NCBI GenBank assembly: GCA_002245135.1
Contig: NGBS01000010.1
Span: forward strand, 124,001 to 188,000
Length of the DNA: 64,000 nt
Direction of reading: 5' to 3'
From: Proteromonas lacertae
Taxonomy: Eukaryota
Shown here one piece after another: positions 702-62,531 of this stretch (position 1 is the stretch's first letter; every line of letters starts with the position of its first letter). Under the pieces are notes generated by a model, which was not told the DNA's origin, ran no database searches, and worked only from the letters and a program-made list of their open reading frames with translations. The position numbers were made by a program, and so were the translations under genes.

Positions 702-727
702 CTTAATAATGACAAACTAGAATTGAA

Positions 728-4934: not shown

Positions 4935-4942
4935 AAATGACA

Positions 4943-6057: not shown

Positions 6058-6069
6058 TAATTTAAAAAA

Positions 6070-7095: not shown

Positions 7096-7099
7096 CCTT

Positions 7100-8661: not shown

Positions 8662-8787
8662 CGTTATTAAAACCACTTCACCTTTAGTTATAAAAATAGA
8701 AATAATAACAATAAGGTTAGAAAAATGTAACAATATAAATTATATTCATTTACTAATAGAAACATATATTAACAAAAACTAAATTCT

Positions 8788-10355: not shown

Positions 10356-10407
10356 AAATAAAAAACATCATTTTATAATAGGCTCGACTTGAGATTCTTT
10401 GTAAATA

Positions 10408-11821: not shown

Positions 11822-11832
11822 TAAATATTTTT

Positions 11833-12943: not shown

Positions 12944-13491
12944 ATAAACAATTGTTTTATTTATTTTACCTTTATTTTTTACTCTTTCTTTTTATCAATT
13001 TCGCAAATTATATAATATTTAATACCATAACATACATAGTAAATTTTAAAAACTAATAAAATTTATGTTTCATCCATAAAACAACATATATGTTGATTGT
13101 GAAGGTCATATTATTTTTTAAAGTGTTTATAGTATTAAAAAATTTGCTTCTACTTTAAAAAGACAAATCAGAATAAATCAAATGTAAATCAGTTACAGTT
13201 GGGCCACATTTAATTTATTTATATATTAGCTGATATATTTTTCTACACTATGGAAATAGAAGACATGATTTCTAACATACCAAAAACATATATGCTATCA
13301 TGTTAGTTTCACGCAATTTATTACCTTTATTATGTCAACGAATTTGATTTTCCTCTTAACATTCACTTTTTTAATTTTTTAATTGTCAAGCCTAAATATA
13401 AGCTTGAATCAAAATTTTTAAAAAATTTGATAATTGACACTATTTCGTATATAGCATATATAATTTAAACAACCAAAAATTCCTACAACAA

Positions 13492-19400: not shown

Positions 19401-19543
19401 GAAACAGAGTTAATTCAATTGAACCATTATTAGATAATTCAGATTCTGAACCATCAATGCTAACAAATTTCTTAAAACCTCCAAGTGAATATGCTAATAT
19501 AATATCGAAGAGAAAATCGACTTTAAAGAAAGGTAATGAATAA
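13492..19543 (+). CDS. Large (~2000 aa) coiled-coil protein with a basic S/P/K-rich tail; 2 introns and four +1 frameshifts
   Basis: ATG at 13492 with introns 13512-13543 (32 nt) and 13566-13590 (25 nt) leads in frame into the ORF at 13594. Track ORFs 13594, 15269, 15787 and 16184 plus a short linker join through +1 shifts near 15297, 15718, ~15840 and 16189. Heptad E/K/L/Q composition throughout. Confidence 0.75.
16794..16837 (+). repeat. (AAT)n coding microsatellite (poly-Asn)
   Basis: gat aat aat aat act gaa gat (aat)8. Confidence 0.85.
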
Positions 19544-23684: not shown

Positions 23685-23919
23685 ATGCGATTGCTATGTC
23701 AAAAATGCAAAGAAGTAAAGTTAGAATTTATGATGTTTTCGAACACCAATTTTAATTGGGAAGAATAAAGTGACTTTTTTACCACTTTTTGGCGGTCAAA
23801 CCAAGCTTTTTGTATTACGTTGGTAGGATCATTTTTTTGACTATAAATACATTTGTCCAACGTATAAATATCATTTTATTCATTATCTGATTATAATTGT
23901 ATAGGGTCTACAACTAAAA

Positions 23920-26900
23920 ATGCTTACTTTAAGGCCAATGATTAATTTGATCCTTATTCCTTCATTATTATTTATATTGGTTCAGTGTTCAGGTATAAAA
24001 ATCGTATTAATTTGTTTAATAGTAGTTCCAGAATCTATTGTATTTATTGAACCTGTATCAAGTTCTTCAGCTGATTTGAAGTGGAATTATCCTGATATAG
24101 AGACTGTTAATGATTTAAAGTCTATAACAGCAATGTACACAATAAATAAAGGTGTAGATGAAGTTCAAAAGCTTGAAATTAGAGTAAATGATGATCCAGG
24201 ATGTGTTGATACAATCGAGACATATGCAAAACATATTGATGAAGTACAGGCAATAGTGGCTTACATATCTGAAGAAAATAGAGAGAGTGAAATACAGATT
24301 ATTACATTAATCCCACCATCAAGAGTTGAGTTGACAGAACCATTTATTCTTCAGTACAGTCCATCAGACGAAGTACAATATCAAAGTGATTTATTACCAG
24401 TCAATATAACTGAAGAAGATTTAAAAGTGGAAATAGAAAAATTTCATTTAAGTGTAGAAAAAGTTGTAAAAATATCAACCAACGAATCATCATCATTAAA
24501 CACTTTAATGTGGGAAATTACATATAATGAAACAATAGGTAATATACCACAGTTATATATCTTTTCAATGCAGGATAATACCAAATCAATCAGTACTACT
24601 AAGATAAATGGTAGTTCATTAAATATCAATTTTCATATACAATATGGTAATGAAAATACAACTACAGTTTTAAATGCAGAAACAGCTACATCTTATGATA
24701 TTCAGTCTGCATTATATTCATTACCATCTTATCATATTATATCCACTGTCCATATGATTCAACCTGATTTGTTTAGTAAGATATGGATGATAACATTTGA
24801 TGATATGAATTTGTATGGAAATATAGAGAATTTAATTATCCATACTGTTGATGATATAAACAATGAAGATGTTAATATGACAGTATGTAGTGAAGATAGT
24901 AATGATTTATTATGTGAAAATATCGATACTATTAATGGAAATGAGATAGGTGGAAGTTTTGATATAATCATTAAAGATCAAACCTTGTCAAACCTATCAT
25001 CAAAAATTACAGCAAATGAATTAGAAGAGAGATTATTGTCATTAAAAGGTGATAATAATCAAACTGTAGTTGGCGCTATCAAAGTTGAAAGAGAATTAAT
25101 TTCCAGAGAATATGGTTATAAATGGACTATATTTTATATTAATAATTCAAATCCACCAAAATTAGAGATTAAATCACATTTAACAGGAGTCGAAGCAAAA
25201 ATATCATTAAGAAGTGAAAATGGAGAAGATCGATCAAGTGGGTTATATGAAGTAGGTGATTATCTATTTGGTGAATTTAGAATAGGATATAAAGGAAAAT
25301 ATACAGATTATTATGATTTAAATAGTATAGATTCAACTATACAAATTGGATTAAGATCTTTATTTCAAAACGACAATATTAAAGTTGAATCTGATGTTAA
25401 TAATAGAATAATGAATGAGAATTATGTATGGTCAGTCACATTTCCATCTGAAATGGGTATGATTGAAGCATTAACAATTGATACATCATTAATATATAAT
25501 GGAACTGCATTAGGAATATCAACTATTAGAAACAAACCAGAAAAGCCATTATTTGAAGGAGATAATAACCATATTATAATGATCAATGATATAAGTGCAA
25601 TGAAATATAGAATTAATGATTTAGAGAGTAATAAACCATTATATTTTAAAGTTAAATTCAATACAATATCAGGTAATAATGAATATGAATATGATTTGGG
25701 TAGAATAATATGTAGAAATATGAAACCTTCTCCACCTGCTAAAGTATCATTAAAACAAGAACAACCTAATCAATTAAGTATAATTATTACACCAGGTAGT
25801 ACCGATGGAGGATTACCAATCAATTTTATTGGATTAGAAATGATGAAAGTTCCATTCGAGAATGAAGTTCAAATGATTGAATTAATTGGTAATACAAAAT
25901 CAGAAATTCAAATGGTTCATATTACATATAATGATGATAGTAACAATGATTATTATTACTTGAAGTTATATGGTTATAAGACAGGAAGAATTTTACCTTC
26001 AACAATGGAAAATGGAATTAAATATCAGTTAGAACAATTGCCATTTATCAATACAGTGAAAGTGAGTAAAGTGTATGGTTCAAATAGAAAGGATATTAAA
26101 TGGTATATTACATTTACATCCTTAAGTGGTAGATTTCCAACAAGTAGTGGTAATATTGAAGAATTGAATTATGAGACTTCACCTTATTTTAAAGGAGAAA
26201 TTGAAATACAAACAGTTGTAGATGGTCAAAAATCGATGGGTGGAACATTTAAATTGAATTTTGGTGGACAAATTACTAGTCCAATTCCATGGAATGCCTC
26301 TCCTTCCTATTTGAAATTAACTTTAGAAAAATTATCAACAATTGGTGTAGTTGATGTTAGTTTGTTAGAATTCCCATCATCTAGACAGTTACTAGTAACA
26401 TTTGTTGGATGTAGATTAGATGAAATTAGTGATGTTATAGTATGTAATTCAGGTCCACAATCATTATTTACTACAGATGCAAATCAATTAATTGGAGGAA
26501 TGGTTAATATCGAAAGAATAAAAAGAGGATCTGGTGCTAATATTGAAAGATATTCAGTCGATTCATTAGAAAAGAGAGAAAAAGATTTAGTTAAAGTTAT
26601 TTCAATCACATCTACAGAAGAATTTATTATCGTGTAGCATTAGAGAATAATATGGGATTGAGTTTACCAGTCATATCTACACCACCATCATTTTCCATGA
26701 AATCAAGTTTACCTGGTGAATGTAGTGAAATATTTGTAAAAAGTAATACTGTTACATCATTGTTTTTAGGATGGTTATCACCTATTTTGAATGGTCAATC
26801 TCCAATATTAGGTTATTTATTATATATGAATGATATGAGTGATAATAGTAATGATAATAATAATGGATATGAATTAATTGCCAATACAACTGCAACTGAA

Positions 26901-29900
26901 TATAATGTTGATGGTTTAATAGAGAATAATATTTATAACTTCAAAGTCCAAGCTTATAATGAATTTGGTGTAGGATTAATGAGTGGAGAAGTAACATTAG
27001 TACCACATCTATCATATACACCAGAAACACCATTTCCACCACAATTAGTGACAATAATAAAAGATAATAACAACAACAGCAACATGATGATGATGATGAG
27101 AATAAAGTAAAAGCAAAGATAAAATGGAAAATTTCAATTAATTATGGTCCAAATATAATGAAATATTACATATTCAATAGAGATATGAATAATAATAATA
27201 AAGAGACATTATTAAAAGTTTATGAAGTTAAAGATATTACTTTATATTATACAACAATATTAGATGATATGATATATGGTGAAAAATATAATGTATTTAT
27301 TCAATCTATCAATGAAAGAGGTGTTTATAGTCCAAAGAGTTCAATAACAGAGATAATAATAGATACAATCCCATTAAAACCATCACAACCAACTATTAAT
27401 AGAATTTCTAGCACAAATATAACTGTGAGTTGGAATAGAAATAAAGAATATGTTTTACCAGTATTAGGTTATAAGTTATATCAATTTATGGATATTGAAA
27501 CAATAACTCCTGAAGTATATCAATTATCTATTAGTGGTTGTACTGGAGGTACATTCTCCTTAATATTGAATAATGATGATAATATAGCAACTAAAGATAT
27601 AGGTTGTAATGCAAAAGCACAAGATATTGAAGAAGCTATAAATGAATTACATAAAATACCAATTGTTAAAGTATCAAGTGATTTATCATCTTCATCTTCA
27701 TCTTCATCAACAACGTTTCTTATTACATTTCCAAACCAATTATCACCTGCTATTCCATTAAAAGTAGCATCTGGCAGATTAATAGGTGATAATGTTATTG
27801 TTAAGAATGAATTATATCAAAGTGGTTTTGTAGGTAGTTTAGTTTATAATGGTGTGAATAAACCAATGAAATTGAACACAAAGTTAGAAATACAACAAGG
27901 ACATACATATTTGTATGTATTACAATGTTATAATGAATATGGAGAAAGTGAATGGAGTATATCATCAGAGTTATTGACACTCTATGATAAACCATCTTCA
28001 ACTTATTCATATGTCGATATTAATTCAACTATTCTTCCTATTTCTACTGGATTTGCTGGTTATAGTTATGAAAAACAGAAGATTACATTGAAATCATATG
28101 GAAATATTGAAGGTAATTATACTGTATCAATTGGTAAAAATGGTATTGGAAGTATAATGTTGAATGTTAATAGTAGTAAAAATGAATTAGAAAATTCATT
28201 AAACCAATTACAATTAAGTAATGGCGAATATATTAATGTATATGTATCAAAAACAACCAACAACTTTATTACAGATTATATAATTACATTTAATGATTAT
28301 GGAGATATACCATTATTATATATTATTAATAACAATATAATAGGTGGAGAAATAGAAATAAGTGAAATAAATAGAGGTAGAGGTAATGAAGTATTAATAG
28401 TTCCAAGAAGTGAAGATAATAAACCAATCAATACAGTGGATAGAGATGATGATAATACTGTTTATATTGGTGAAATATATAATAATAATAATAATGAATT
28501 TGTTACATCTACATCTTATTCTAGAGTAATTCAACCAATAATGAATATACAACAATTACAAGTTTATAAATGTAATTATGATTCATATGAATATATATTA
28601 TTATATAAAGATACAAAAGTAACTGGTGTTAGAATTGATAGTGTAGAATCTATTAAAGAAGCAATTCTTTCTATTCCTTCTATTAAAGATATTGATGTTT
28701 CTTATGAAGTAATTGATGAAGATATGTCCTATTATACAGTTACATTTAACTCTAATTTTGGTGAAATGGATTTATTAGAACTTAGTTATGCTAGTGAAGA
28801 TAGAGATTCAGTTGAATGTACTATAAATACAATATTATTACAACAAAATAAACCAGAAATACAGAAAGTACATATACCAAAGAGTGATAGTTATAAATAT
28901 ATAAAAGTCACATTTGAAGATGAAGAACAATCAGCTATAATTGAATCAGAATCAAATGTAGAAGAAATAGTTGAAAAAATAAGTTCAATTCCTTCAATTA
29001 AAGAAGTACAAGTAACAATTGTTAGTAGTAAAGAAGATGATTCTTATGATTGGTTAATTACTTTTACACAGTTGAAGGGAAATGTCCCATTATTAAAAGT
29101 AGAACCTTCACCATCACTTATACAGAAAATAGAAATAGAATCACAATCAACATTAACTGGTTCATTTTCATTTTTATATAATAATAAGAAATCTGATTCA
29201 ATATCATTAACATCTACAAATGCAAATGATATGATTAGTAAATCATTAGAATCAATAATAAATACTCCAGTAGAAGTGAACAGGTTTATAAATAATGGAA
29301 ATAAGTTGGAATTGTTTGTTACATTTTATGTAAGTAATAATGATAATAAAGATGACATTTATAATTTATTATCAATAGATGAAACAGGTTTAAATGGTAG
29401 AAAAATACAATACAATATAACTACTGTTAATTCAAATATAGAAGATTCATCATTCTTAGTTGATATTAATGATATAATCGTTACAGAAATACAATATGGA
29501 AATCCTAATTATCTATTAGACTATCATGTTGATAAAATAGGAGAATATAATATACATATATACCAATTAATACAAGGAGGATTATTAGGAAAATATTATA
29601 ATAATATATACTATTATAAAGATCCAATAGTAACAAGAGTAGATAATGAATTGAATTTCAATTGGAATAATGGTATTGTTGTTCATAGAAAATCAGATTT
29701 AATTGCTGTTGAATGGCAAGGAAGATTAAAACCACCACATTCTGATGAATTTATATTGTATTTAACATGTGATGATAAATGTAGATTATTTATAGATAAT
29801 ACTCTATTTATTGATATTTGGGATAAAGGTATTAATCAAGGATGGAATTATATTACATTAAATAAAGAGAAATATTATAAATTAAGAGTTGAATATATTG

Positions 29901-32900
29901 AAATGAGTAGTAATGCATATGTGAAATTAGAATGGAGTAGTTCATTATTCCATAAACAGATTATTTCAACAGAATATTTATATTATGATTCTGAGATAGT
30001 GAATAGTCCATTTATAGCAAATATAATACCTAATTATCCATTTTATGTTTTCAGTAATATAATGAATGTTAAAGAGAATGGAATTGCAGGAATTGAAGAT
30101 TCATTTATTATTCAAGCTTTTGATCAAACTGGTAATAATATAATAGAAAGCAATAATAATAATGTGAATTATAATGTCAGAATAGTGATGAATAATAAAG
30201 AATATCCAAGTAGTATTAAATATACAGAAAATGGTAAATATGAAGTAACTTATAATTTAACAATAGTTGGTGAATATACAGTATATGTCACTTTAGATGA
30301 TAAAGATTTACAATGTGGAAATATAGATATTAATAATAATAATAAATGTAGTCCATTTAAAATAACAATATCACAAGCTACAAGTTCATTAGAATATTCA
30401 ATAATTGAAGGTTTAAATCCAACATACAACTACTTTGCTGGTTATAAATACTCATTTATATTTACAGTCTATGATTCATATCAAAATGTAATGAATAAAG
30501 GAGGAGATGAAGTAACATTAATGGTTGAGAATATTGAACATCCTATTTATTATTTAGCAAATACAACTGATTATAATAATGGAAGTTATGAATTATCATT
30601 TTCAATCAAAGAAGTTGGTCCTTACAGATTAATACTCAATTTGAATGGTAAGAAGTATAACCATGAGTTATTAGATGAATATTTATACTTTATAAGATCA
30701 AATGTTGTTTCTCCATCTAATTGCCTTGTTAATGGATTAGATAATTATAATAATTACTCAACAAAATATTCATTTAATGTAATATCTATGGATGAATATG
30801 ATAATATGAGAGATGGTAAATATGGCTGTATATTTGAAGATAAAGAATGTACTGATGGTAGTATTGATACATTTAATGTGGAAATAACACATGTTGAAAG
30901 TGGTAATAAATACTATTCAAGTTCAGCTGTACATGTTTTATCAATTAGTGGTATTAATTTGAGAGGAACATTTACATTAACATTCTATAATAAAACAACA
31001 ACTAATGATATTCCATATAATATTACAGCTTATTCACTTCAAGCAATTATTAATAGTTTATATTATGATGAATATAGAGTATTAGTTGAAAGAAAAACAA
31101 CAGAAACTGGATTTATTTGGATTATTACTTATTTAGATCATTTTGGCGAGTGGTTACCCACAGTATTAACAATTAATAGTGATAAATTAGAAGCAAATGA
31201 TGAAGTGAATGTAATAATTGATACTAGAGGAAAAGGTGGAATTTATCCAATATCATATGATTTACCAAATAAAGGATTATATTCAATACAAATCTATTAT
31301 CATGGTAATAAAATCAATGAAAATCTAATTATCATCAATGTGACTGGATCTACAATGTCAAGCCATTCTTCCTATGCTGAAGGTAATGGTTTATATTATG
31401 GAACAGCTGGTGAAAAAGCAATGTTTTATATCCATTCACAAGATGAAAGATTACCAGGAGTATATCATTATTATCTTGATTATAAATTAAGTGAAGAAGA
31501 AAAGGAATTATTTAAACCAACATCACATACATTCGAGTGTAATGCTGTAAATGGTTTATTCTCATTGAAATATTTTGATTTCTTAGTGATTGATGTTGAT
31601 TATAACACTACAATTGATGATTTCGAGAGAATATTAAGATCTAATGATGTGTTGGGAAATGTAAATATTAGATTAACAGGTAATAACGGTAATACAATAT
31701 GTTCTGGTGAAGAATTAACTATTACATATTCTACCTATATATCTCCATTAGAAATACCACGAATTAACACTAATGATTTGAATGGTACAGTTGAAATGAC
31801 AATGAAAAGTGAAGGATGTTCTGGTATAATGGGTGATTATAAAATATCAATAAATGGAATAGAATCAATACCAATAAGATTTGATGCTAGTAAAACAGAA
31901 TTAGAATATGCATTATCTAAATATACAGATTATTTATTCAATTATGAAGTGGAAGTTGATTATTTACACTCTACAAATACATCATTATATTCATTATATA
32001 AATTCTATACAATTTATTATTATGATTCTCCAATACCATCTCAAAGAAAACCTTTTACATTATCAATGGATATTTCCTCCATAATAACGTCAAATGATAT
32101 TAAACAACCAATATTGTATTTATCACATTTAAGAAATGTATCTGCAGGTAATCCAAGACCAAAGGATGTAGATATCAATACATTATATTTGAGTTTAACT
32201 CACTTAACTCACAGAGTTCACAATATAGAGTATAAAATAAGTGATAAAAAGATACAATTATTGTATTGCACTGCTACAAGCGGATCATTTTCTATAGTTT
32301 ATGATGGTTATTCAGAAGTTGAAATTACACCAACAATGAATGGAGTGGAATTCTTAGAAATATTGAATGATCATTTTGGTTTAAGTGATATGACAATTAG
32401 TAATAAATATGATATATTATGTAATGGAATTGATAGTTTTATTTCTTCATTAAATAATAAGACATTCCCAACATTATTAATATCAAAGAATAACTTAAAG
32501 GATGGAGAATTATATTTTGATGTAATTCAAGAAGGAACATTAGAATTAAAACCATTAGAAGAAAGTGATGAAGGTATTTATGAATATAGTTATATACCAT
32601 ACATTTCTGGTCAATATGAATTATCATTGAAGATGAATAATTTGAATTTATATTATCCAAATACAACTTATATTTTAGTTAATTCTAGTAAACCATACGC
32701 TCCATACTCAATTCATGATTCAAAATCAATCGCATTTCAAGGACAAACTTATACATTCAATTTAGCTTTGTATGATGAATATAAAAACAAATATGAATCA
32801 AGAATATTAGTGAAATATGAAAAAATAACAGCTTATTTGTTAAATATAAATAATAAAAATAATGATAGAGTTATAGCAGATATTGAATTATCAATTCCAT

Positions 32901-50900: not shown

Positions 50901-53900
50901 GAAGGTGTATTAACTGAAACTATAAAATATACTTATTCTAATCCAAGAGATAATAAAGAGAATATAGAAAAAGCCTTAAAAGGATTAATTACATTATATA
51001 AGTTTGATGTTAAATATGAATCAATGGGATTATATTCAATCAATCTACGTCATTTAAATCATGAAATAAATGAAGGATATGGTGAAAATGTATATATTAT
51101 TCCATTTATAGAAGATGGAGGATGTGATATAACAACTTATAAACAAATACAAGGATCTTTACCAAAGACAATAATTATTAGTGATTTAACTCCATATATT
51201 ACATATTATTATCGTGTTCAAGCATTTACAAGAAGAGGATGGAGTGAATTCTCAGAAGTACAAAGTTATACAACATATGATAAACCATCCACACCAAAAT
51301 CAATAAATGTTACAGTTACAGAAACATCATTATTAGTAGAATATGAACAAAGTGAAGATAATGGAAATTCTGAAATTACTCATTATGAATTTGTTATTTA
51401 TGAATCTGGTATATATGAAGTACAAAGAGTATCAATTGGAAGTGGTGATTTAAAGGTTGATGAAAAGAGTATTTATACTGAGAAACAACGAGTATTATTC
51501 TATTATGATGATAAAGAAGATGATTTATTAAGTGGATCGTTTATGATTGCCTATAAGAATGAAATAACTCATCCAATATATTACACAAAAGATAAGGATG
51601 AATTAGCAAAAAGAATAGAATATTCAATTAATCTATTATATATTTTAAGTGGTTCAATAGTAAAATGTTATAATGATTATGATGAATTAAAGTATGTTGA
51701 ATGTGATATTGATTTCCACTCCAATTTTGGTTATGATGAATATATAAATGTAACAACTTCTCATGATTTTAAAGGACATATTGGTGTTTCAAGTATTAGA
51801 AAATCAATACCAACAATTGGAGGATATTTCTCCTTATGTTATTTACCAAATAATGATATAACTGAATGTACTTATAATTTACCATATGATGTAGAAGCTG
51901 ATGAAATGAAAATAGCATTAGAATCATTGAAATCATTGAATGAAGTGAAGATTAATAGGTTTAGAAGTGGACATGGATTTGATTGGTATATTACGTTTAA
52001 TGGTAATTGTGAAGAAACACCATTATTGTTATTAAATACAGTTCATTTAGCTGGTGTATCAACGAATGGAAAAGTAACAAGAATTCAGCAAGCTAAGTTT
52101 GTTGGATTGAATAAAACAAATTTAGAACCATCCAATAATAGATTTGAAATTATTAATGTAGATGATGATGTGAATTATAAAATAATGATTAGAGCCGTTA
52201 CAGAGAAAGGATTTAGTTATTTCAGAAAGAACTTCAATGATAATAATGTTATTGCTGGATTAATACCAACAAAAGTAACAAATCTAACAACAATTGTAAT
52301 GTCATCTAGAATGTTGAAAGTAGTGTTTAATTCACCATTAAAATCATTTGGATCTGATGTAAATGCTTTTATTATAGAATGGGATTATGAATATGATTTT
52401 AGAAACGTTGAGAACAACAGTTGGAGTTTCACATTAACTAACTTAACCAATTTCAAGAATTATGATAAGTATTGGTATAATATCTATTTACCTGATTCAA
52501 AGACATATTATATTCGTGTAGCTGCAGTTAATAGTTTTGGTATAAGTGAATGGGATAAAGTATATGATACTCCAATGAACAGAGCACCAGCAAAACCAAA
52601 GGATATTATATTGACAGTTGCATCTCCAACTCAGTCATATGTTACATGGATGAATTCTACAATAGATTCAGATGTATTTGGTGGAGATGGTGGTAGGCCA
52701 ATATTGTATTATAAAATAGAATATAGTAATGAAACATCATTTAAGAATGCAATATTATTGAATGTATGGGATGATAGTAATAAATATATAATTGGTAATA
52801 GAAGTATAGAAGATGGAAGTAGTTCAGAATTCCCAAAGAATGTATATGTTAGAATATCTGCAGTAAATGATATTGGTATTGGTGATGCTGGTAATGGTAA
52901 ATGGGAAGATATCGATTTAAGTGTTAGACCTCCATCTACAATACAAAATATAACAATAAGTCCAAAGAAAGAGAATTCATTCTTTATTGAGTGGGAAAGT
53001 CCATTTACTGATGGTGGATCTCCAATAGTTGGAGTTTTGATTAAGTATAGTCCAAATAAGACATTCCCATATCAACAAACATATGAAGTTCATTTGCCAG
53101 TTACATCTCCTGAAAGAATTGATCTTGTAATAAAGAAAAAGAAAGATCAAAAATCATCATTTACAATAAAACCAACAAATTTAGAAGAATTGTTAAATGC
53201 TAGAGAAAGTAGAACTAGAAGAAGTAGAAGATTATATAGAATAAAAGAAGATCAATCTGATGATGATGATGAAATATTAGTAAAAAGACAAAATAGAGAT
53301 AAAAAATACACAGAAGATGATGTTTATACAAAAGATGAATTTATAACAGAAGATTTCTATACAAATGATGATAATTATACTGAAGATGATAATACAACTG
53401 ATGAAGATGAATTTACAGATGAAACAACTGAAGAAGAGACATATTCAACCATTGATGAAGCAACAACAACTGAACCACCCATCCTTCCAGATTATCCTGA
53501 TGAGATTGAAATAACAGTTGGTGATAATGATTCATATATATTAAATATAACAGAAATAGAGGATGAAGAAGGAAGAGAGAGAATAAGAAAGAATTTAGAA
53601 GATTATTTGAAAGAAATATTTGAAGGAGATGGAATGTTGGTAGAAGTAAGAATAGAAGTTGTGTATTTAAATGATATGAATGTATTGCCTGTAGTAACAA
53701 ACACTTATATATTAGGATATAAGTTTATCATCCGATTCTATCATTTTAAGAATGGTTATCCAGATGGAACTTGTTATTTTTATCCAACTATAAAAATTAC
53801 AGGAATGGAAGTAGAAATTGAATCTTATTGTACAAGATCTTTGAATTCATTATACATGTCATTATATTATGGTGAAAATGGTGATAATATCAATACTAGA

Positions 53901-56900
53901 TCAGTTGTTGATGATGAAAATCTTGAACATACTGAATCAGAGGAAGAAGAGGAAGATGAAATAGTTGATGGAGTATTTAAGATTAATTTCAATAATAATA
54001 AGAACTTCTTGAAAGAAGTAAATAGAATATCTAAATATGGAAGTGCAACAGTGAATGACAAGCCAGAATTAATATCATCAACATTGATTGAAGTAAATTC
54101 AAAGTTAATTAAATCAAAAATGAGTAATATTACAGAATCTGAATTCTATATTGATGATATAACCAAATTCTATGTTGGTCAAAAGATAAGAATATTACCT
54201 AATAGTCAACAGATAAATGATTATAATGATATCTTATTAGGAACTTACAATGTAACATCTTCACATTCTTTGTTATTAATATCCAAAGAACCATTATATT
54301 ATATTACATCAATGGATGATATAGTTAGAATCAATGGTAGATTATGTGAAATAATAAGTTACACTAATATAACAATTGAAATAGAAGAGAAATGCAGTTT
54401 CTTAGTTGGTGAACAACATATAGTCAGTAAATTGCCTAGAATTTACACAATTAAATCAGTAAGAAAAGAAGATGAGACTGTAGAATCAAATAAAAGAGGT
54501 TTTATTGTATTAGATCAATTATTGGATATAAAGAGAAGTGATAATGATAATGTGAATTTGAAATTAGCATTTTATGAAATGGATGGAATAAGATTCTTAA
54601 TTCATTATGATAATCCTTATCAAAAGATGGATCCAATTCAAATAAGAACAATTCCTGATTTATCAGAAAATGAATTACATAATTTAATAACAATATCTCA
54701 TGGTTTTATATCCAATTATACTTTAGAAGTGATTTATCCAAGATATTTGAATTATTTATATTATTTCCAAATACAAGCTTATTCAATCTACAATGATGAA
54801 GTGTTGTATTCTGAACCGTCTTTACCATTACCAACCTGTTATTTAGTTGCAACACCTCCAAAACCATTGAATTTTGAAGTGAGTAGATCAAATCATGTAG
54901 ATGAAATACAAAGAATTACTTTATCATCAAAATTCATACCAGAAATAAGAAATATCTCAGTAACAGCTCCATTTATTAAAGAAATACAAACAATACATAC
55001 AACTGCTAAACAAGGTATGAATCATACATCAGATTTTGATATTTATTTAACACTTCCAGAATCTCCTTACAAGAAAGATAAAACAGATGATGACAAAGAA
55101 ACAATAAGTGTTTCAATGAGAAATACTATATATCAAGTGAGATTAACAGATATAGAAGGAAATTTACCAACAGGAAGATTTTATTTAATAGAAGAATCGT
55201 TAGATGATGATGAAGAAGAATTATATAAAAGAGAAAGAACAAGAAGAATGAATGAAGATACAACTGAAAATGATGATAATGATAATGAGGTTCAGACTCC
55301 AAGTGATATTAAAACTACACATATATGTGTTGATCTTGAGGATGATAATAATTTGAATTTATTATATGCAAAAGTATACAAAGAAATAACCAAAGAAAAT
55401 GAAATTGTTTATTCATTTATCTATGATAATCCTTCAATGATGATAAATGTAACTAATCATGAATTTTGTGTATTAAATGAAGGAAGTAATTATGAAGTAG
55501 ATTATAATTGTAGAGATTGTGATTATTTATCATCTGATATAAGTGAAGAAGATTTGAAATATCGATTTGATTTTATCCCTTTAATAGGTGATATAACAAT
55601 ACATCGTAGTGTAGAAGATATTTTTAATGGTTATTTCTGGACAGTTTATTTTGATAGTTATGTTGGTAATTTCGATGATATGAAATGTGAGGTAAAAGAT
55701 AAAGAAAATACTTCATGTGATGTTAGAACAATACAAGATGGTAATGAAATAGGAGGTAACTTTAGTTTATCAATAAAAGATGAAGTTGGAGCAGTTACAA
55801 CATGTAATTTAGATAGTAATTTTGATGTGGATGAATTGATTGAATGTTTACATTATAATATTGAAGTATTTAAGAAAGAAGAAGATGAGAATATTATGGG
55901 TCATACATGGTTAATTACATTCATAGATGATAATATTGGTGATATTGAAGAATTTACATTCAATTCTTACAATTTGTTAGGTGTAAATGTAACTCTATCA
56001 ATAGAAACAATTCAAAATACAAATTATCTAAATGGAAGTTATAATTTGATATATAATGATGAATCAACAGTAGATATAGAATATGATACAACATCTGAAA
56101 GAATAAAAGAAGCACTAGAATCATTGGAGAGCATTAATAGAGTTGATGTATTATTAAAAGAAGTCAAAGTGAATTATAGAAGTTATGATATAACATTCAT
56201 AGACACTAAAGATGAAAGTGAAGATGTGGAGTTATTAAGATATAATAATAAATTGAATGGAATTGATAGTTCAATATTAGTTCAAGAAGTAGTGAAAGGA
56301 GCATCACATAATGGAAATGAATTAAGTGTAAGTTTTGAGCCATCTTCAACATTAACATCATTATTGAATGGATATACAATTAATTATGAAGAAATTGATT
56401 TAAAGAATAAGAATGTACTTAGATGGAAAGAAGAACCATTAGTATTAAATGATACTGAATTTATGTACAGAATTGAAACAATTGAATGTAAAGGAAATAG
56501 TCCAAAATATCCTTGTGGAAAATCACCATCAGATACATTCCAATTACAATTCGGAGATGAAATGACTGAAGAAATTCCATATAATGTTGATGTGATGAAA
56601 TTGAGATTAATTTTAGAAAAATTAAATGGAATAAAAGCTGTATCAGTTAAGAGAAGATCAATCGGATTAATGTCTGAAAGAATTGGTAGATTAGAATCAT
56701 ATAAAAATAATTCAGATATTCCTAATATAGAATTGAATGAAGGTTATAATCCAAGTAGAATGTGGATAAATGGACATGAATATTGTATGAGAGGAAGATA
56801 TTTCACAGAATGTAATTATCCATATGGTAAAAGACATCCACCAGAAAAGACTGATATTTATATAGATACAGGAATAAGATGGGAAATTACCTTAATAGGA

Positions 56901-59900
56901 ATATCATCAGAAATAATAAACAACCCATTAATCAAATTATTCTCTCATATTGACAACGAAAATACTCAATTGAGATTATACCATCAGAAGTGTAATAAAT
57001 GTTATTATATAAAATCATTAACAGCTGGTAGAACATATAATGTATCATTAACACCTGAAACTGGATATTTATCAGGTATTCCAAGTTATACAGTAGGAAT
57101 TCCAATGCAAATACCTGATAAGCCAATCATAACATCATTTGATGTAATATCAATGAAAAGATTAGAAGTATATTGGAAAGAACCAGAATCAAATGGTGGA
57201 TCAAATATAACATATTTTGATGTTGAATTATGTACAAATGAATATTTCACTAATTGTGTTTATCAATTGAGAGTGAACTATAATCAGAATATATCAGATT
57301 ATCATTCAGTATTTTATGAATTGAAAGAAATCAATTATTGGGTAAGAATAGCAGCAAGAAATGAAGTTCCACCTGAGAAGATAGTAGTAAGTAAAGAGAA
57401 TGAAATAGATAATACAAATTGGGCAGTAGAAGGACCAATAATGCCAATTAATATATCACCATTTAAACCATCCAAAGTAGAAGCATTTAATATAAGAAAT
57501 GATACAATTAGATTAATGATAAGTGAACCATTTAGAAAAGGAGGATTAAAATTAGAGTATTTTGATGTAAAGTATTGGATAAAAGAAGATGAAGATAAAG
57601 TAAATCCAATAGTGAATGAAATAAGCTTAAAAGTACCAAATATAACTAGATTTAAAACAAAATATCATTATAGACAGTATTTATATGACATTGATGGTTT
57701 AATACAAGGAAAGAATTATTCATTTATAGTAAGAAGTGTTACAAATAGAGAAAATGGATTTATTAGTAATTATACTGAACCAATATATGAAGTACCAAGA
57801 AATGTTCCAGATATTCCAAGAAATTTAACCGTTTTATCACATAATTTAAATGATGAGATAGATCCATATTCGTTGAGAGTTAGTTGGAATAAACCAGTAA
57901 ATGATGGTGGTTATGAAATAACTTATTATGTATTACAGTATTATAAATCAAATATAACAATACCAACCAAACATTCAATATCTTGTACAAGTGATATATT
58001 ATTTAATGTTACTTATTATCCATATGTGAATGAAACTGTAAAAATAGAAAATCTGAATGTTAGTAATAATCCATATCATATAAGAAAAACAATTATGAAA
58101 TCTCATTCATATTTTAAACCAATTGAAATAGTATATGACTCGTTTAACCAAATTAATATAACATATGAATGTAATACAAATATAAGTGGTGGAGTAAGAG
58201 ATATTAAGTTAGAAAGTAATGATTTAAGATATAAATGTTCATTTAATAGAATTAATAATGGAAGTAGAGCTGGAGGTTATCATCGAATTAATTCATTTAT
58301 ATTATATGGAGATAAAGTAAACAGTTGGTTTAGACCAATCATAGGAAATAAAAAAGAAGAAGGTAATTTAGTGAAGTATGAAAATTGTAAAGAAAGTGGA
58401 AGATTATTAGCTGAATCATTAAGTCATATGAAGTTAATAGGTGGAGAAGTAAATGTAAGAACTAAGACTTTAGAAGAAGATGAATTATCATTGAAATGTT
58501 ATTTTGAAGTAGAATATGTAAAGAATTTCGAAGATGTAGAAAGATTAGATATAGAAGTAATGGATTATATGTCATTAAGATATGTAGAAATACCTGTATT
58601 AGATATATGTAATGATGAAGTTGATATGAATGAATTATGTAGTAATAATCATCCAAATGCACATTTTGCAGAAGTTCCTGAAGGTTATAAAGAAATAATT
58701 ATAAAGGAGAGAGATGAAAATGATGAACTTATAACAAAATATGAAATAAAAGATTTAATCGTAGGTCAACCATACAGAATAAGAATATTAGCTGTAAATG
58801 ATGAAGGATCAAGTTATCCATTAGAAATCAATAAACCATATATAATACCATTAGTTAGACCTGATCCACCAATGAATATAAGATTAAATTATACAAAGAG
58901 AAGAGATTGGTTATATTTGTATTATGATGAACCAAAATCAAGTGGTAATTTACCAATAATAAAATATGAAATAGAATGGTGTTATGATAAGATATTCTAT
59001 AATAGTCATTTATTTAGAGTTAATATAAGTAATGTAGTTTATGATAGTAATGATATAAGATGTCCAGAATATAATAATCCATTGGTTTATATCTTAAATA
59101 CAACAATAATTGCTAATAAACCTAAATCATTATTGATTGATGATGATGATTATGATAATTACATGGATAATTCTTACTTTACATTAGAAATAAAGATGAA
59201 AGATAATGATAAAATATATGAAACAAAACCAATTTCATTAAACAAAATAGTTGGTGAATCAAATGAAGAAAATGGTGATAATATATATGATTCTGAAGAT
59301 GAAAAATCAATTGGATCTTTACAATCAATATTATATGATCAATTACATTTATCCAATATAAATGTACAAAGATATAGTAATGAGAAGAATATGTATTTTG
59401 AAATAACATTCTTGGAAGAGAGTAATATTGAATATTTCATAGTAAAGAATGTAACAAATAAAAATATTCATTTAAATGTAAAGAATAACACTGGAGTGTA
59501 TTACAAATATTGTGTTGGTAAAGAAGATCAACCATTATTGTTAATAAATATAAATAAGAGTGTATTATACTATGTTAGAGTTAGATCAATGACAGTATTA
59601 GGATATAGTGATTATGGTTATGCATTGGAAGGAATAAAACCCAAAATAATCCCATCAGCACCAAGTGATGTTAGAGTGAAAGTATATAATGGAAGTAGAT
59701 TAATATTGACATATAATAGTCCAGTAGATTATGGAAGTGATGATATAGATTATTATGAAATAGAAATTGATAGAAATCCATTATTTAATTCTGAATCAAT
59801 GAGAATAATTAAAAATACTGAGTTGAAAGTGTTGAAAGATAGTTTTATAACTTATATTGACGATATAGAGAGTGGTATCAATTATTATATAAGAATAAGA

Positions 59901-60677
59901 TGTCATAATAGTGTTGGTTACAGTGATTATAGTGAAAGTTATCCTAATACAATAATAGCTTATAATAAACCATCCAAACCAATGAATTTATATATGAATA
60001 CAACATCTGATAGTATAATAACTGTTAGTTTTGATAAAGCATTATCTAATGGAGGTGATGTGTTATTATATTATCGAATTGAATGGTCAAATAAGAAAGA
60101 TTTCCATCCAATCATTGGAAGTGATAAAATAATTGATGATGGTAGTAATACATATCATTATTTAATGAAGAATTTAGATGTAAATAAATATTACTATGTT
60201 CGAGTAGTTAGTATTAATAAAGAAGGTGAAAGTAGTTATTCAACAATAAGAAATAGTTTAAAACCTCATTTGTGTGTTCCAGGTAAACCAATAATAAAAT
60301 TATTAGAAAAAGTGAATAAGAATACAATTCATATTCGAATATCAGGTCCAAATTTACCTTATCATGAGATAGAATGTGGTAATAGTGATAATAAAGTAGA
60401 ATCTTGTGGTTGTAATAGTAAAAATGAAATAGTGAATATATGTAATGGTGGTTCTAGAATATTATTTAATCGAATATATTTGAGTGATAAACCATCTTTT
60501 GAAAATGTTCGAGAATTTGATAGAGAAGTAATAACAAATAGTGAATATAGTGATGTGTATATAGAGAATGTGTTAAGTGGAAAATATTATTTGAAAGTGT
60601 CTTGTCATAATTCAATAGGAGGATCAAAATCAAATGATAAAGATGAGAATAATAATAAATTGGAAATAAAAATATAA
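23920..60677 (+). CDS. Giant (~12,240 aa) secreted FN3 / filamin-like / PA14 / EVQ-repeat protein ('titin-like')
   Basis: Signal peptide and an in-frame 30-nt intron at 23993-24022. Four track ORFs join through single-base shifts near 26623 (restores the FN3 motif YYRVALENNMG), 27084 and 44940, with coding-like linkers. Dozens of FN3 motifs (P..P...W..P..NGG..I..Y.IEW; YY.RV.A.N..G). Confidence 0.85.
23993..24022 (+). other. 30-nt in-frame GT-AG intron right after the signal peptide
   Basis: GTATAAAAATCGTATTAATTTGTTTAATAG. The track reads through it as GIKIVLICLI. Removal gives ...LVQCS|VVPES. Confidence 0.75.
29576..29990 (+). other. PA14 domain 1 of the giant protein
   Basis: GGLLGKYYNN..TRVDNELNFNW..VEWQGRLKPP..TCDDKCRLFID..LRVEY..LEWSS. 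Confidence 0.8.
32988..33455 (+). other. PA14 domain 2 of the giant protein
   Basis: GGLLSYYY..TRIDNSLNMNWG..FTVRWEGYI..GGDKLMIYIN..IKIEY..LYWNS. Confidence 0.78.
36268..36685 (+). other. PA14 domain 3 of the giant protein
   Basis: GGLIGNYYDN..DSLIDFKW..SIKWNGYI..KADDGVEV..IEIKY..LYWRS. Confidence 0.8.
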
Positions 60678-61921: not shown

Positions 61922-62531
61922 CTTTTATTAACTTAACTCTGTTATATTAAATGTAGAAGTGAAACATTATTATTTCCTATTTTTTTATTCATTATGACTT
62001 ATTCTCACTTTAAATTCAATCTAAATCTCAATAAATATTAATAATATATACCACAAATTAGTTTTAGTAATCACTTCTGCATAATTCAGTGGGAAATAAT
62101 TTCTTTGTTGACAAAAGGGACAAATCAATAACTTACTTCTAAAATCAATTCTTTAAAACACAACCACAACTTGCTCCTTTGCATCTGATGGGTTGATAAG
62201 GTAATATAGCAGGCATGTCTTCTAGAATCTTAAATGGTGAGTATCTAGCAATACATAAATAACAAATAGATAAATACAAACAATTAGATGGTACATGAAT
62301 TATTCTTACTTCTATCTTAGTTGAAGGCCATATTCCCCACAAAAAACGAAGTCCGTCCTTATCTTCAGTTGATTATGTGTCATCAATGTTCATTCAAATT
62401 TTTATACCAGATTTTTTTCATATAACAATATACTTACAGAGAAAAAAAGGATTTTAAATTAATACAATTAATACAAATGTATTAAGTGTATTTGTTTCAA
62501 ATTTTCAAATTCTTCATTAATCGGAAAATAA

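What the first reader, a model, noticed from the sequence alone, without database searches (positions are those of the whole stretch)
23920..60677. A single ~36.7-kb, almost intronless gene for a ~12,240-aa secreted protein with no C-terminal anchor
Seen: four adjacent ORFs joined by one-base shifts, with coding-like linkers, one signal peptide and only one detectable intron, although neighbouring genes are intron-dense. The C-terminus (..DENNNKLEIKI*) is hydrophilic, with no TM or GPI signal. It combines FN3, filamin-like, three PA14 and EVQ repeats, which are too diverged to show as DNA repeats. Similar 'titin-like' proteins occur in other stramenopiles, and I know of no established function for them. 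Inference: a megadalton fibrillar surface-coat or adhesin scaffold. It is rich in N-X-S/T sequons and is a plausible substrate or binder of the glycan from the nearby cluster.
Basis: partly seen in the sequence, partly recalled or inferred. Interest (0 to 1): 0.75.

Follow-up and report, generated by a model that had tools for sequence, protein, structure and literature searches.

The report
Giant secreted FN3–PA14 protein gene
This is one 36.7-kb gene for a 1.4-megadalton secreted protein built from fibronectin-type, PA14 lectin-type and phage-decoration-like modules; its three frame breaks are likely sequencing errors, and it is predicted to form a sugar-binding fibre outside the cell.

Summary
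Four stop-free ORFs (23905-26637, 26595-27110, 27071-44959, 44934-60677, + strand) lie head to tail in three frames in 25% GC DNA. They carry one N-terminal signal peptide, one in-frame 30/33-nt intron, no other hydrophobic segment and a hydrophilic end. Single alignments to a 7,325-aa Phytophthora protein and a EukProt protein run across junctions 1 and 2. Other homologues run across junction 3. Reading junctions 1 and 3 as single-base shifts scores better than reading them as short introns. Junction 2 is undecided. The product is about 12,250 aa (1.41 MDa). It contains 45 FN3 hits, 3 PA14, filamin-type Ig domains and 37 'EVQ' units. The EVQ unit has no Pfam model. It is homologous to the surface 'C-terminal extension' domains of mycobacteriophage Bxb1 (PDB 9D93, E 4e-37). 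It also matches three Ochromonas mastigoneme chains weakly (9UFE, E 0.007-0.02). EVQ units sit inside FN3 domains. Sequons are not enriched, and no test links the protein to the nearby glycan genes. Function is inferred: an unanchored extracellular lectin-bearing fibre. No reads or RNA could be checked.

The parts
23920..23992 (+). Exon 1: start codon and signal peptide
   Evidence: First ATG of the open frame. The only hydrophobic stretch of the whole protein lies here. Orthologues P0006 and P0002 also begin with a signal peptide directly followed by an FN3 start, 'VPSAP'.
23993..24022 (+). Short in-frame intron (30 nt; alternative acceptor at 24025 gives 33 nt)
   Evidence: GTAT..AATAG, the same size and ends as the roughly 29-42-nt introns of the neighbouring WD40 gene. 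Removing it puts the FN3 start directly after the signal peptide, as in the orthologues. Inferred; no RNA was available.
24023..26622 (+). Coding block 1 (frame 1): N-terminal region with 6 EVQ units and split FN3 domains
   Evidence: No Pfam hit. Six EVQ-unit hits. 941 database proteins match at E<=1e-3. Collinear with P0006 residues 690-1354.
25939..26562 (+). EVQ double module that was folded
   Evidence: AlphaFold2 mean pLDDT 83.3, two beta-alpha-beta-beta-beta units. Foldseek best match is Bxb1 tail tip 9d93. phmmer against PDB gives gp23 at E 7.9e-15.
26623..26625 (+). Junction 1: frame 1 to frame 0, best read as one base missing at a T run
   Evidence: The frame-0 text right after it is an FN3 F-G strand motif. 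The read-through scores 121 v 109 bits (P0006) and 109 v 97 bits (P0002) against the only size-plausible intron, 26634-26662.
26626..27047 (+). Coding block 2 (frame 0): end of one FN3, one whole FN3, start of the next
   Evidence: Pfam fn3 E 6.7e-11. A single HSP of P0006 (E 3.6e-38) and one of P0002 (E 7.9e-28) run from block 1 through block 2 into block 3.
27048..27107 (+). Junction 2 zone: frame 0 to frame 2, inside an N/Q/D low-complexity run. Either one base missing or a 32-nt intron (27048-27079)
   Evidence: An FN3 hit of the self-trained HMM (residues 1038-1138, HMM positions 2-91) spans it. The two readings score 73.9 v 72.4 bits. The candidate donor GTGACA is unlike the six GTAT donors seen.
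27086..44941 (+). Coding block 3 (frame 2): EVQ/FN3 units, three PA14-filamin cassettes, FN3 array
   Evidence: 5962 open codons. Pfam. Collinear with P0006 residues 1825-7253 and with P0005.
27350..27982 (+). Example of an FN3 domain with an EVQ unit inserted after strand C
   Evidence: One FN3 HMM hit 197 residues long encloses EVQ unit 1197-1292. The sequence was read by eye. The AlphaFold2 model is too poor to confirm the fold (pLDDT 55.3).
29579..29944 (+). PA14 domain 1
   Evidence: Pfam PA14 E 4.4e-16.
30077..30310 (+). Filamin-type Ig repeat (further ones near 31.2, 33.9 and 34.4-34.65 kb)
   Evidence: Pfam Filamin E 5.8e-13; weaker hits elsewhere.
33089..33433 (+). PA14 domain 2
   Evidence: Pfam PA14 E 6.5e-17. 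The nearest solved relatives are PA14 chains 6qe7 (Anti-sigma-I factor RsgI3), E 3.7e-25, and 6qdi, E 2e-21.
36272..36670 (+). PA14 domain 3
   Evidence: Pfam PA14 E 4.1e-15.
44939..44942 (+). Junction 3: frame 2 to frame 0, best read as one extra base at an A run
   Evidence: The frameshift reading beats the 34-nt intron candidate (44952-44985) against P0168 (95 v 78) and P0003 (90 v 76). It also keeps the homologues' spacing between two motifs (26 v their ~28 residues; the intron reading gives 14).
44943..60677 (+). Coding block 4 (frame 0) and stop codon: 14 EVQ units, 23 FN3 hits, ending just after an FN3
   Evidence: 5247 open codons. Unit counts. Pfam fn3 up to the last 250 residues. The downstream 1.3 kb has no convincing exon.
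53205..53504 (+). About 100-residue acidic, low-complexity linker that starts with a cluster of basic residues
   Evidence: Read. It holds two of the three small tandem DNA arrays. A processing site here is speculation.

Best explanation
The four ORFs at 23,920-60,677 are pieces of one gene, an orthologue of the ~7,300-residue 'fibronectin type III' proteins of oomycetes; its frame breaks are likely single-base assembly errors and its product is predicted to be an unanchored, carbohydrate-binding extracellular fibre.

Shown: the protein reads through as 12,253 residues (1.41 MDa, pI 4.7). It has an N-terminal signal peptide and no other hydrophobic segment. It contains 45 FN3-type hits, three PA14 domains each followed by filamin-type Ig repeats, and 37 'EVQ' units of about 100 residues. 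The EVQ unit has no Pfam model. It is homologous to the surface-exposed C-terminal-extension (CTE) domains of mycobacteriophage Bxb1 capsid, tail tube and gp23.

Shown at sequence level only: EVQ units are inserted inside FN3 domains, after strand C. The chain would therefore be an FN3 backbone with EVQ knobs on its side.

Inferred: the protein is secreted. The FN3/Ig chain gives length. The PA14 domains, and possibly the EVQ knobs, bind glycans on the cell's own coat, on prey or host, or on a substrate. Retention at the surface, if any, would be non-covalent or by cross-linking, since there is no anchor.
For: One gene:
- A single HSP of P. infestans P0006 (query 126-667 to subject 1168-1719, E 3.6e-38) spans junctions 1 and 2. 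So does one of EukProt P0002 (E 7.9e-28).
- P0006 is collinear with window 25264-40885.
- P0003 (E 2.3e-14) and P0009 (E 7e-15) span junction 3.
- FN3 domains straddle junctions 1 and 2.
- EVQ units occur in ORF1 (6), ORF3 (17) and ORF4 (14).

Single-base shifts rather than introns:
- Junction 1 gains 12 bits in both orthologues.
- Junction 3 gains 17 and 14 raw score units and keeps the homologues' spacing.

Assembly error rather than decay:
- 11,200 codons stay open where a stop is expected every ~10.5 codons.
- The breaks at junctions 1 and 3 lie at T and A runs.
- The coiled-coil gene at 13.6-19.5 kb shows four more breaks without good intron candidates.
- There are no long DNA repeats to confuse assembly.

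Secreted and unanchored.

Family: 28 of 4108 scored candidates reach E<=1e-3. The top ones are Aphanomyces (1.2e-278) and P. infestans (6e-252), with the same Pfam set. Named relatives include a Thraustotheca 'secreted protein' and a 7,479-aa MMETSP transcript.

Lectin-type PA14: nearest solved chain is 6qe7 (RsgI3), E 3.7e-25.

EVQ equals the phage CTE-like domain:
- Profile of 18 window units against PDB: gp23 E 1e-26.
- Wider profile: gp23 4e-37, capsid 1.5e-4, tail tube 5.5e-3.
- The AlphaFold2 model (pLDDT 83.3) matches 9d93 by Foldseek at E 7e-5.
- It also matches actinophage tail proteins in BFVD; 4 matches reach E<=0.001.

Nesting: 6 of 6 FN3 hits that cover only the C-terminal half follow an EVQ unit within 25 residues. 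2 of 4 over-long FN3 hits enclose one.
Against: - No reads, RNA or proteome could be examined: no run was listed and no genome is held. Real frameshift mutations therefore cannot be excluded.
- Junction 2 is undecided (73.9 v 72.4 bits).
- At junction 3, P0009 scores slightly better with the intron reading (76.3 v 72.8).
- The last ~20 kb (40.9-60.7 kb) has no collinear counterpart in P0006. Only P0005 and P0003 bridge into it.
- The function of the phage CTE domains is stated to be unknown, and they are dispensable for infection (PMC8704799, passages read).
- 3,485 of 12,253 residues are not assigned to any module.
- The AlphaFold2 model of a nested unit failed (pLDDT 55.3).
- The organism is not identified.
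Confidence: 0.65

Rival explanations
1. A very recent pseudogene, or a null allele. The two or three frame breaks are real mutations in the genome and no full-length protein is made in this strain.
For: Three frame disruptions exist in the sequence as given. No reads could be examined. Giant genes are large mutational targets.
Against: No further stop or shift occurs in 36.7 kb, although a stop is expected every ~10.5 codons by chance. Decay would therefore have to be extremely recent. The breaks at junctions 1 and 3 sit at homopolymer runs. A second long gene in the same window shows four similar breaks, which points to the assembly rather than to this gene.
Confidence: 0.18
2. Junctions 2 and/or 3 are ordinary short introns (27048-27079, 32 nt; 44952-44985, 34 nt). 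The gene would then have two or three introns and only one true frame error.
For: Both candidates have the local intron size. The junction 3 candidate has the local GTAT donor and a TAG acceptor. P0009 scores 76.3 v 72.8 for the junction 3 intron reading. At junction 2 the intron reading gives the consensus distance from the FN3 'P.P' start to the B-strand W (my count).
Against: Junction 3: P0168 (95 v 78) and P0003 (90 v 76) favour the frameshift reading. Both homologues carry a segment that the intron would delete. Junction 2: the donor GTGACA is unlike the six GTAT donors seen, and the intron would remove a good A-strand.
Confidence: 0.25
3. Four separate genes, each with its own transcript.
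For: As deposited, the frames are separate. An annotation pipeline would call separate ORFs.
Against: Only the first ORF has a signal peptide. Protein domains and single homologue alignments run across the junctions. The overlaps of 43, 40 and 26 nt leave no room for promoters or terminators.
Confidence: 0.03
4. A component, or a relative of components, of hair-like extracellular appendages such as the tubular mastigonemes of stramenopile flagella, rather than a general coat or adhesin.
For: The EVQ profile matches three different chains of PDB 9UFE nearly full length with the same motif pattern: OCM5 (E 0.0067), 'Tubular mastigoneme protein' (E 0.018) and OCM6 (E 0.023). E-values improved when the profile was widened (0.29 and 0.079 before). 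ESM-Atlas neighbours at 0.84 and 0.79 are oomycete clusters in which 42-43% of members carry EGF_2. Those scores are below the tool's own 0.9 level for more than a lead.
Against: The E-values are marginal. The known mastigoneme proteins are small EGF-like proteins (bioRxiv 10.64898/2026.09.11.750887, passages), and no EGF domain was found here. Whether this organism has flagella is unknown. The structural check by VIA-align never ran.
Confidence: 0.1

Closest known systems
Oomycete giant 'Fibronectin type III domain' proteins (P. infestans 7,325 aa, P0006; Aphanomyces euteiches 7,320 aa partial, P0005); also a Thraustotheca clavata 'secreted protein', a Pythium insidiosum hypothetical protein, and a diatom (Conticribra) protein
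   Same: Signal peptide followed at once by FN3. The same Pfam set (fn3, PA14, GLEYA, Filamin, GEX2 Ig). Collinear over window 25.3-40.9 kb. EVQ units are present. No paper on their function was found.
   Different: Only 25-28% identical. The window's protein is about 1.7 times longer, with some 20 kb of extra FN3/EVQ sequence after the point where P0006 ends.
C-terminal-extension (CTE / CTE-like) domains of mycobacteriophage Bxb1: capsid gp14, tail tube gp19, three tandem copies in gp23 (PDB 9D93, 9D9W)
   Same: Sequence homology of the EVQ unit (E 4e-37 to gp23, 1.5e-4 capsid, 5.5e-3 tail tube), with the same 'EVQ..GGTF.L.f.g.TT..I.ynAS' motif. Fold match. Both are displayed on the outside of a larger scaffold.
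   Different: In the phage they are C-terminal appendages of virion proteins. Here they are internal insertions in FN3 domains of a eukaryotic secreted protein, 37 per chain. The phage function is unknown and they are dispensable (PMC8704799, passages). [quoted passage not shown]
Giant bacterial repeat adhesins with a PA14 ligand-binding domain (ice-binding adhesin type, PDB 4p99; recalled as a class)
   Same: The working logic: a very long chain of Ig-like/FN3-like extender domains carrying PA14 sugar-binding modules, acidic, megadalton-sized. 4p99 appears only as a chance-level fold match (E 0.39).
   Different: No RTX/T1SS end and no membrane or cell-wall anchor was found. The gene is eukaryotic with a signal peptide and an intron. 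The extender is FN3 with nested EVQ, not BIg repeats.
Titin / twitchin
   Same: Size and FN3 richness. They appear as weaker hits through FN3 alone (E 1e-40 to 1e-80, 22-30% identity over 4-11% of the query).
   Different: Titin and twitchin are cytosolic, with Ig I-set domains and a kinase. This protein has a signal peptide, PA14 and EVQ domains, and no kinase.
PA14 domains of the anti-sigma factor RsgI3 (PDB 6qe7) and of 6qdi
   Same: Closest solved relatives of PA14 domain 2 (E 3.7e-25 and 2e-21), aligned over the whole domain.
   Different: Those are bacterial proteins, which I recall as polysaccharide sensors. Sugar specificity cannot be transferred.

Membership tests
Stramenopile giant secreted FN3/PA14/filamin proteins (oomycete 'Fibronectin type III domain' proteins) | N-terminal signal peptide directly followed by an FN3 domain | tested here: met
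   The hydrophobic N-terminus is the only such segment. P0006 and P0002 begin the same way. With the intron removed, the FN3 start follows the signal peptide directly.
Stramenopile giant secreted FN3/PA14/filamin proteins (oomycete 'Fibronectin type III domain' proteins) | Collinear order: EVQ/FN3 block, then PA14-filamin cassettes, then FN3 array | tested here: met
   tblastn of P0006 gives ordered HSPs from 25264 to 40885. P0005 and P0007 are likewise ordered. The Pfam sets are the same.
Stramenopile giant secreted FN3/PA14/filamin proteins (oomycete 'Fibronectin type III domain' proteins) | Significant full-length sequence similarity | tested here: met
   E 1.2e-278 (946 bits) and 6e-252 (857 bits) at 25-28% identity.
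Bxb1-type CTE-like domain (no Pfam model) | Profile-level sequence similarity, including the EVQ..GGTF.L..G..T..I.y.AS motif | tested here: met
   Profile of 18 window units: gp23 E 1e-26 with three stretches. Wider profile: 4e-37, capsid 1.5e-4, tail tube 5.5e-3.
Bxb1-type CTE-like domain (no Pfam model) | Same fold | tested here: met
   The AlphaFold2 model (pLDDT 83.3) matches 9d93 chains at E 7e-5 and 5.6e-4, probability 1.00. It also matches actinophage tail proteins in BFVD. TM-scores are low (0.3) because the model has two units. VIA-align never ran.
Titin/twitchin family | Cytosolic protein (no signal peptide) with a protein kinase domain and Ig I-set repeats | tested here: not met
   A signal peptide is present. 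No Pkinase or I-set hit appears in any of 62 tiles or 6 blocks.
Fungal PA14 adhesins (Flo/Epa type; features recalled) | N-terminal PA14, Ser/Thr-rich stalk and a C-terminal GPI signal | tested here: not met
   The PA14 domains are internal, at residues ~1890-4250. The C-terminus is hydrophilic with no terminal hydrophobic segment.
Bacterial RTX giant adhesins (features recalled) | C-terminal RTX repeats / type I secretion signal | tested here: not met
   No RTX-type Pfam hit. The gene has a eukaryotic signal peptide and an intron.
Stramenopile tubular mastigoneme proteins (OCM/Mas) | Shared domain with OCM5, OCM6 and 'Tubular mastigoneme protein' of PDB 9UFE | tested here: inconclusive
   E 0.0067, 0.023 and 0.018. 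Two of the matches are nearly full length. No structural comparison could be run.
Stramenopile tubular mastigoneme proteins (OCM/Mas) | EGF-like domains (as stated in bioRxiv 10.64898/2026.09.11.750887, passages) | tested here: not met
   No EGF family hit.

The most novel reading that the evidence does not exclude
The 'EVQ' unit marks an uncatalogued extracellular domain superfamily. It is shared by the virion-surface decorations of actinobacteriophages (Bxb1 gp14, gp19, gp23), the tubular mastigoneme proteins of stramenopile flagella (OCM5, OCM6) and a family of megadalton stramenopile proteins in which it is nested inside FN3 domains. On this reading the giant protein is a hair- or fibre-forming appendage scaffold related to mastigonemes, and the domain is a general module for decorating extracellular filaments.
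Probability: 0.25. Interest if true: 0.7.

Novelty: new member of a known kind. Interest (0 to 1): 0.5.

Why it matters
Gene model: as the sequence stands, an annotator would call four proteins, three of them without a signal peptide. The evidence here says one 1.4-MDa secreted protein. That would place it among the largest secreted proteins predicted in any protist.

Family: it anchors a conserved but unstudied stramenopile family. Oomycete plant and fish pathogens and diatoms have relatives, so the family could bear on adhesion, cyst coats or surface fibres.

Domain: the commonest module of these proteins has no Pfam model yet has a solved homologue (Bxb1, PDB 9D93). That gives a structural template and a concrete question. 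Does this domain bind glycans or build filaments, in phages and in eukaryotes alike?

Architecture: domains nested inside FN3 loops would be an unusual way to build a long fibre with side knobs.

Tried and rejected
- Reads and RNA: the look-up of sequencing runs listed no run for 26300-36200 (none was listed). Read laying was therefore never used.
- Whole genome: not held.
- Close relatives' DNA across junctions 1-2: 262 pattern matches in metagenome contigs, none confirmed.
- Organism: the Hsp70-like neighbour gave only unnamed hits and distant Hsp70s. The organism stays unidentified.
- Intron explanations: all GT..AG pairs of 18-90 nt that restore the frame were listed. They were rejected for junction 1 and junction 3 and left open for junction 2.
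- Self-BLAST of the protein: only 6 internal HSPs at E<=1e-6, so an HMM was needed to see the repeats.
- AlphaFold2 of a nested FN3[EVQ] unit (window 27350-27982, messy 14-row alignment): pLDDT 55.3, unusable.
- VIA-align searches (pdb_via_wide, pdb_via): machine busy in nine attempts. They never ran.
- PHROGs and NCBIfam on three window modules: one PHROG match of unknown function (phrog_29520, E 0.0055) for window:55746-56333, otherwise nothing. Only homologue P0184 hit phage tail PHROGs.
- ESM Atlas on the 755-aa blank (53205-55469): one weak lead (0.85) to oomycete FN3 fragments.
- Literature: searches found no paper on this protein family or on PDB 9UFE. Freeman et al. 2025 (Bxb1 structure) is not held. 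PMC5771568 (passages) only lists secreted FN3 proteins expressed in Saprolegnia cysts; I could not tie them to this family.
- Earlier findings of this scan: none.
- Sequon enrichment: rejected.
- Programmed frameshifting: considered and not favoured. The shifts are -1, -1 and +1 with three different stop contexts.


Full report
**The observation**

Stop-to-stop scanning with the standard code finds exactly four ORFs of 150 codons or more between 22 and 62.5 kb:
- 23905-26637
- 26595-27110
- 27071-44959
- 44934-60677

All lie on the + strand, in frames 1, 0, 2 and 0, and overlap by 43, 40 and 26 nt. The window is 22-30% GC. From its base composition a stop is expected every ~10.5 codons. The 5962-codon ORF therefore has a chance probability of about 1e-258.

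The first ATG is at 23920 and the last residues are ..DENNNKLEIKI. A hydropathy scan (19-residue window, threshold 1.8) finds segments only in residues 3-43 of the first ORF and none in the rest. So there is one signal peptide and no transmembrane or GPI-type tail.

**The 5' intron and the neighbours**

At 23993-24022 (or 24025) lies an in-frame, stop-free GTAT..AATAG element of 30 or 33 nt. Its translation is the second hydrophobic stretch.

The WD40 gene on the other strand at 20-21.5 kb has five introns by my reading. All begin with GTAT, end in ATAG, and are about 29-42 nt long (lengths counted by eye). Removing the element puts an FN3 start right behind the signal peptide, which is how the orthologues P0006 and P0002 begin.

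No other intron can hide inside the long ORFs unless it is stop-free and a multiple of three.

**Are the junctions shifts or introns?**

I listed every GT..AG pair of 18-90 nt that would restore the frame. Each junction has one candidate in the local size range:
- Junction 1: 26634-26662 (29 nt, GTAGCA..TTGAG)
- Junction 2: 27048-27079 (32 nt, GTGACA..AACAG)
- Junction 3: 44952-44985 (34 nt, GTATTT..GTTAG)

Junction 1. The frame-0 text just after the break is an FN3 F-G strand motif. A read-through with X at the break scores 121 against 109 bits with P0006, and 109 against 97 bits with P0002. This is a one-base shift at a T run.

Junction 3. The frameshift reading scores 95 against 78 with P0168 and 90 against 76 with P0003. 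P0159 and P0005 do not reach the junction and tie. The two informative homologues have about 28 residues between two conserved motifs. The frameshift reading has 26 and the intron reading 14. Against this, P0009 scores 76.3 for the intron reading and 72.8 for the shift. I read junction 3 as one extra base at an A run.

Junction 2. It lies in an N/Q/D low-complexity run and cannot be decided (73.9 against 72.4 bits). The atypical donor and the loss of a good A-strand make me lean towards a shift.

**One gene**

- With X at the breaks the protein is 12,253 residues, 1.41 MDa, pI 4.7.
- One HSP of the P. infestans protein P0006 (7,325 aa; query 126-667, E 3.6e-38) crosses junctions 1 and 2. So does one of the EukProt protein P0002 (E 7.9e-28).
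- P0006 is collinear with the window from 25264 to 40885.
- P0003 (a diatom protein, E 2.3e-14) and P0009 (E 7e-15) cross junction 3. P0005 flanks it in order.
- An FN3 hit spans junction 2 (residues 1038-1138).
- The same rare module, the EVQ unit, occurs in ORF1 (6), ORF3 (17) and ORF4 (14).
- Only the first ORF has a signal peptide.

**Error or mutation?**

This could not be tested. No sequencing run was listed, no genome is held, and no close relative's DNA was found.

Three points favour assembly error:
- The rest of the 36.7 kb is flawless.
- The breaks at junctions 1 and 3 are at homopolymers.
- The coiled-coil gene at 13.6-19.5 kb has four further frame changes at about 15,290, 15,720, 15,790 and 16,190 with coding-like text on both sides and no good intron candidate.

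There are no long DNA repeats that could have misled the assembler. I put error at about 0.75 and a real recent lesion at about 0.2.

**What the protein is made of**

Pfam on six blocks and on 62 overlapping 300-residue tiles gives:
- FN3 at 26.7-27.4 kb
- PA14 at about 29.6, 33.1 and 36.3 kb, each followed by filamin-type repeats
- a dense FN3 array at 36.8-44 kb
- scattered FN3 in the last ORF
- nothing at all in ORF1

An FN3 HMM trained on the window's own domains finds 45 hits.

PA14 domain 2 is closest to the solved PA14 chains 6qe7 (RsgI3, E 3.7e-25) and 6qdi (E 2e-21), which I recall as polysaccharide sensors. It is far from anthrax protective antigen (E 2e-3).

Together with the EVQ units, 8,768 of 12,253 residues are assigned. 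The largest blank (residues 9764-10518) opens with an acidic linker of about 100 residues.

Sequons number 178 against 163 expected, so they are not enriched.

**The EVQ unit**

phmmer of ORF1 against 1.84 billion representatives gives 941 proteins at E<=1e-3, 248 at 1e-10 and 32 at 1e-30. Many have 10-30 matched stretches.

Of 20 looked up, 3 carry an informative name: a Thraustotheca clavata 'secreted protein', a Pythium insidiosum protein and a 7,479-residue MMETSP transcript. Two more are named only 'hypothetical protein'.

A unit HMM of about 100 residues (consensus ..NEVQTVTV..GGTFTLSF.GQTT..IPYDASAAEVKAALEALSTIG.VTVTRSG.YTWTVTF..GD.PLL) finds 37 units in the window's protein.

Proteins made of little else (P0184, P0201) have no Pfam hit. 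The window's modules have no NCBIfam hit, and their only PHROG match is one of unknown function (phrog_29520, E 0.0055).

AlphaFold2 on a double unit (25 rows) gives pLDDT 83.3 and two beta-alpha-beta-beta-beta units.
- Foldseek against the PDB finds 2 matches at E<=0.001. Both are chains of the mycobacteriophage Bxb1 tail tip (9d93). The Bxb1 capsid comes next.
- In BFVD, 4 matches reach E<=0.001. Among the best 20 are mycobacteriophage minor tail proteins and a Microbacterium phage major tail protein.

By sequence:
- The double unit hits 'Tail tip cage, gp23' at E 7.9e-15.
- A profile of 18 window units hits it at 1e-26.
- A profile of 16 window units plus 20 units from homologues hits it at 4e-37. 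That profile also hits the Bxb1 major capsid protein (1.5e-4) and tail tube gp19 (5.5e-3), in both cases in their C-terminal parts.

These are the 'C-terminal extensions'. PMC8704799 (passages read) shows them to be external, immunodominant, dispensable and of unknown function. PMC13252515 (passages read) speaks of three CTE-like domains in the Bxb1 distal tail protein. It says the baseplate accessory proteins of Bxb1 and Douge interact with cell-wall glycans.

**A lead to mastigonemes**

The same profile matches three different chains of PDB 9UFE: OCM5 (E 0.0067), 'Tubular mastigoneme protein' (0.018) and OCM6 (0.023). The first two matches are nearly full length and share the motif pattern. 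With the narrower profile the values were 0.29 and 0.079.

This is marginal. I found no paper on the entry, and the structural check never ran.

**Nesting**

Read by eye, several stretches run as follows. First come FN3 strands A-C, ending in the 'Y.veY'-type strand. Then come one or two EVQ units. Then come FN3 strands C'-G with the 'Y.[FY]RV.A.N..G' motif.

In numbers:
- All 6 FN3 hits that cover only the C-terminal half of the HMM follow an EVQ unit within 25 residues.
- 2 of the 4 FN3 hits longer than 130 residues enclose an EVQ unit.

The FN3 broken by junction 1 is of this kind. Homologues P0093 and P0103 show the same order. The AlphaFold2 model of one such unit failed (pLDDT 55.3), so the nesting is a sequence-level inference.

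**How it most likely works**

Shown: a signal peptide, no anchor, lectin-type PA14 domains, and surface-decoration-type EVQ domains on an FN3/Ig chain.

Inferred: the protein is exported and forms or joins a long extracellular fibre. If it extends like other FN3 chains it would be of the order of a micrometre (recalled, about 3-4 nm per domain). Its PA14 domains, and perhaps its EVQ knobs, would bind carbohydrate.

Whether the target is the cell's own coat, prey, host or substrate is open.

The upstream cluster does encode glycan-modifying enzymes: AT3+SGNH acyltransferase, FUT8-like, GT92, DUF229, FkbM methyltransferase and Nucleotid_trans. Only proximity links it to this gene.

**Comparison and novelty**

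It is a member of an existing but uncharacterised stramenopile family. It is about 1.7 times the length of the oomycete orthologues.
- It is not titin-like in any functional sense: no kinase, and secreted.
- It works like the giant bacterial PA14 adhesins but shares none of their secretion or anchoring features.

What I did not find in print:
- the homology of its main module to the Bxb1 CTE domains
- the module's possible presence in mastigoneme proteins
- the nesting inside FN3

Supplements of the Bxb1 papers and the Cell 2025 paper itself were not seen and may already describe the domain's wider distribution.

**Verdict**

The single-gene reading is strongly supported. The error-versus-mutation question is open. 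The function is inferred. Interest is moderate.

Noticed in passing
window 13591-19543 (+): A long coiled-coil gene is split into five open pieces in frames 1, 2, 0, 1, 2. Each step is +1, near 15290, 15720, 15790 and 16190. Coiled-coil-like text lies on both sides and there is no good intron candidate. Three of the four upstream frames end in TGA. These are probably homopolymer indels of the assembly. Four shifts in the same direction are unexplained.
   Followed up: partly
window 1-12991, both strands: A cluster of about ten glycan-related genes, mostly long single ORFs: acyltransferase-3 + SGNH, FUT8-like fucosyltransferase, GT92, DUF229, FkbM methyltransferase, nucleotide-diphospho-sugar transferase, and several ORFs with an N-terminal TM segment but no Pfam hit. 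At least three of them seem to carry 25-34-nt GTAT-type introns, so they are not intronless.
   Followed up: partly
window 53205-53504 (+): Inside the giant protein lies an acidic, low-complexity linker of about 100 residues preceded by a cluster of arginines. It might be a proprotein-convertase-type processing site that would cut the protein in two. This is pure speculation.
   Followed up: no
window 62532-63998 (+) and about 62021-62372 (-): A very divergent Hsp70/Hsp110-like gene; its best named hits are only 21-24% identical, and one unnamed 339-aa protein is 77% identical. On the other strand is a Sec23/24-like zinc-finger exon. The organism seems poorly represented in public protein sets.
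   Followed up: partly
proteins P0147, P0150, P0153, P0189 (hits, seen): Proteins of about 1,000 residues from metagenomes consist of many tandem EVQ/CTE-like units. They have high-GC-style composition and a shared N-terminal 'IWRGD' motif. They look bacterial or phage-borne, so the domain is abundant outside eukaryotes too.
   Followed up: no
protein P0053: A 551-residue fragment from a public read assembly is 79% identical to residues 53-595 of ORF1. A sister species or strain with the same gene therefore exists. Its DNA could settle the frame questions if a longer contig were found.
   Followed up: no
window 44600-45100 (+), residues about 6900-7060: Around junction 3 sits a cysteine-bearing module with two 'GD[FY]I.V.G..FR[IV]' motifs. 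It is conserved in P0168, P0003, P0159 and P0005 and has no Pfam hit. It is a second unnamed domain of this family.
   Followed up: partly
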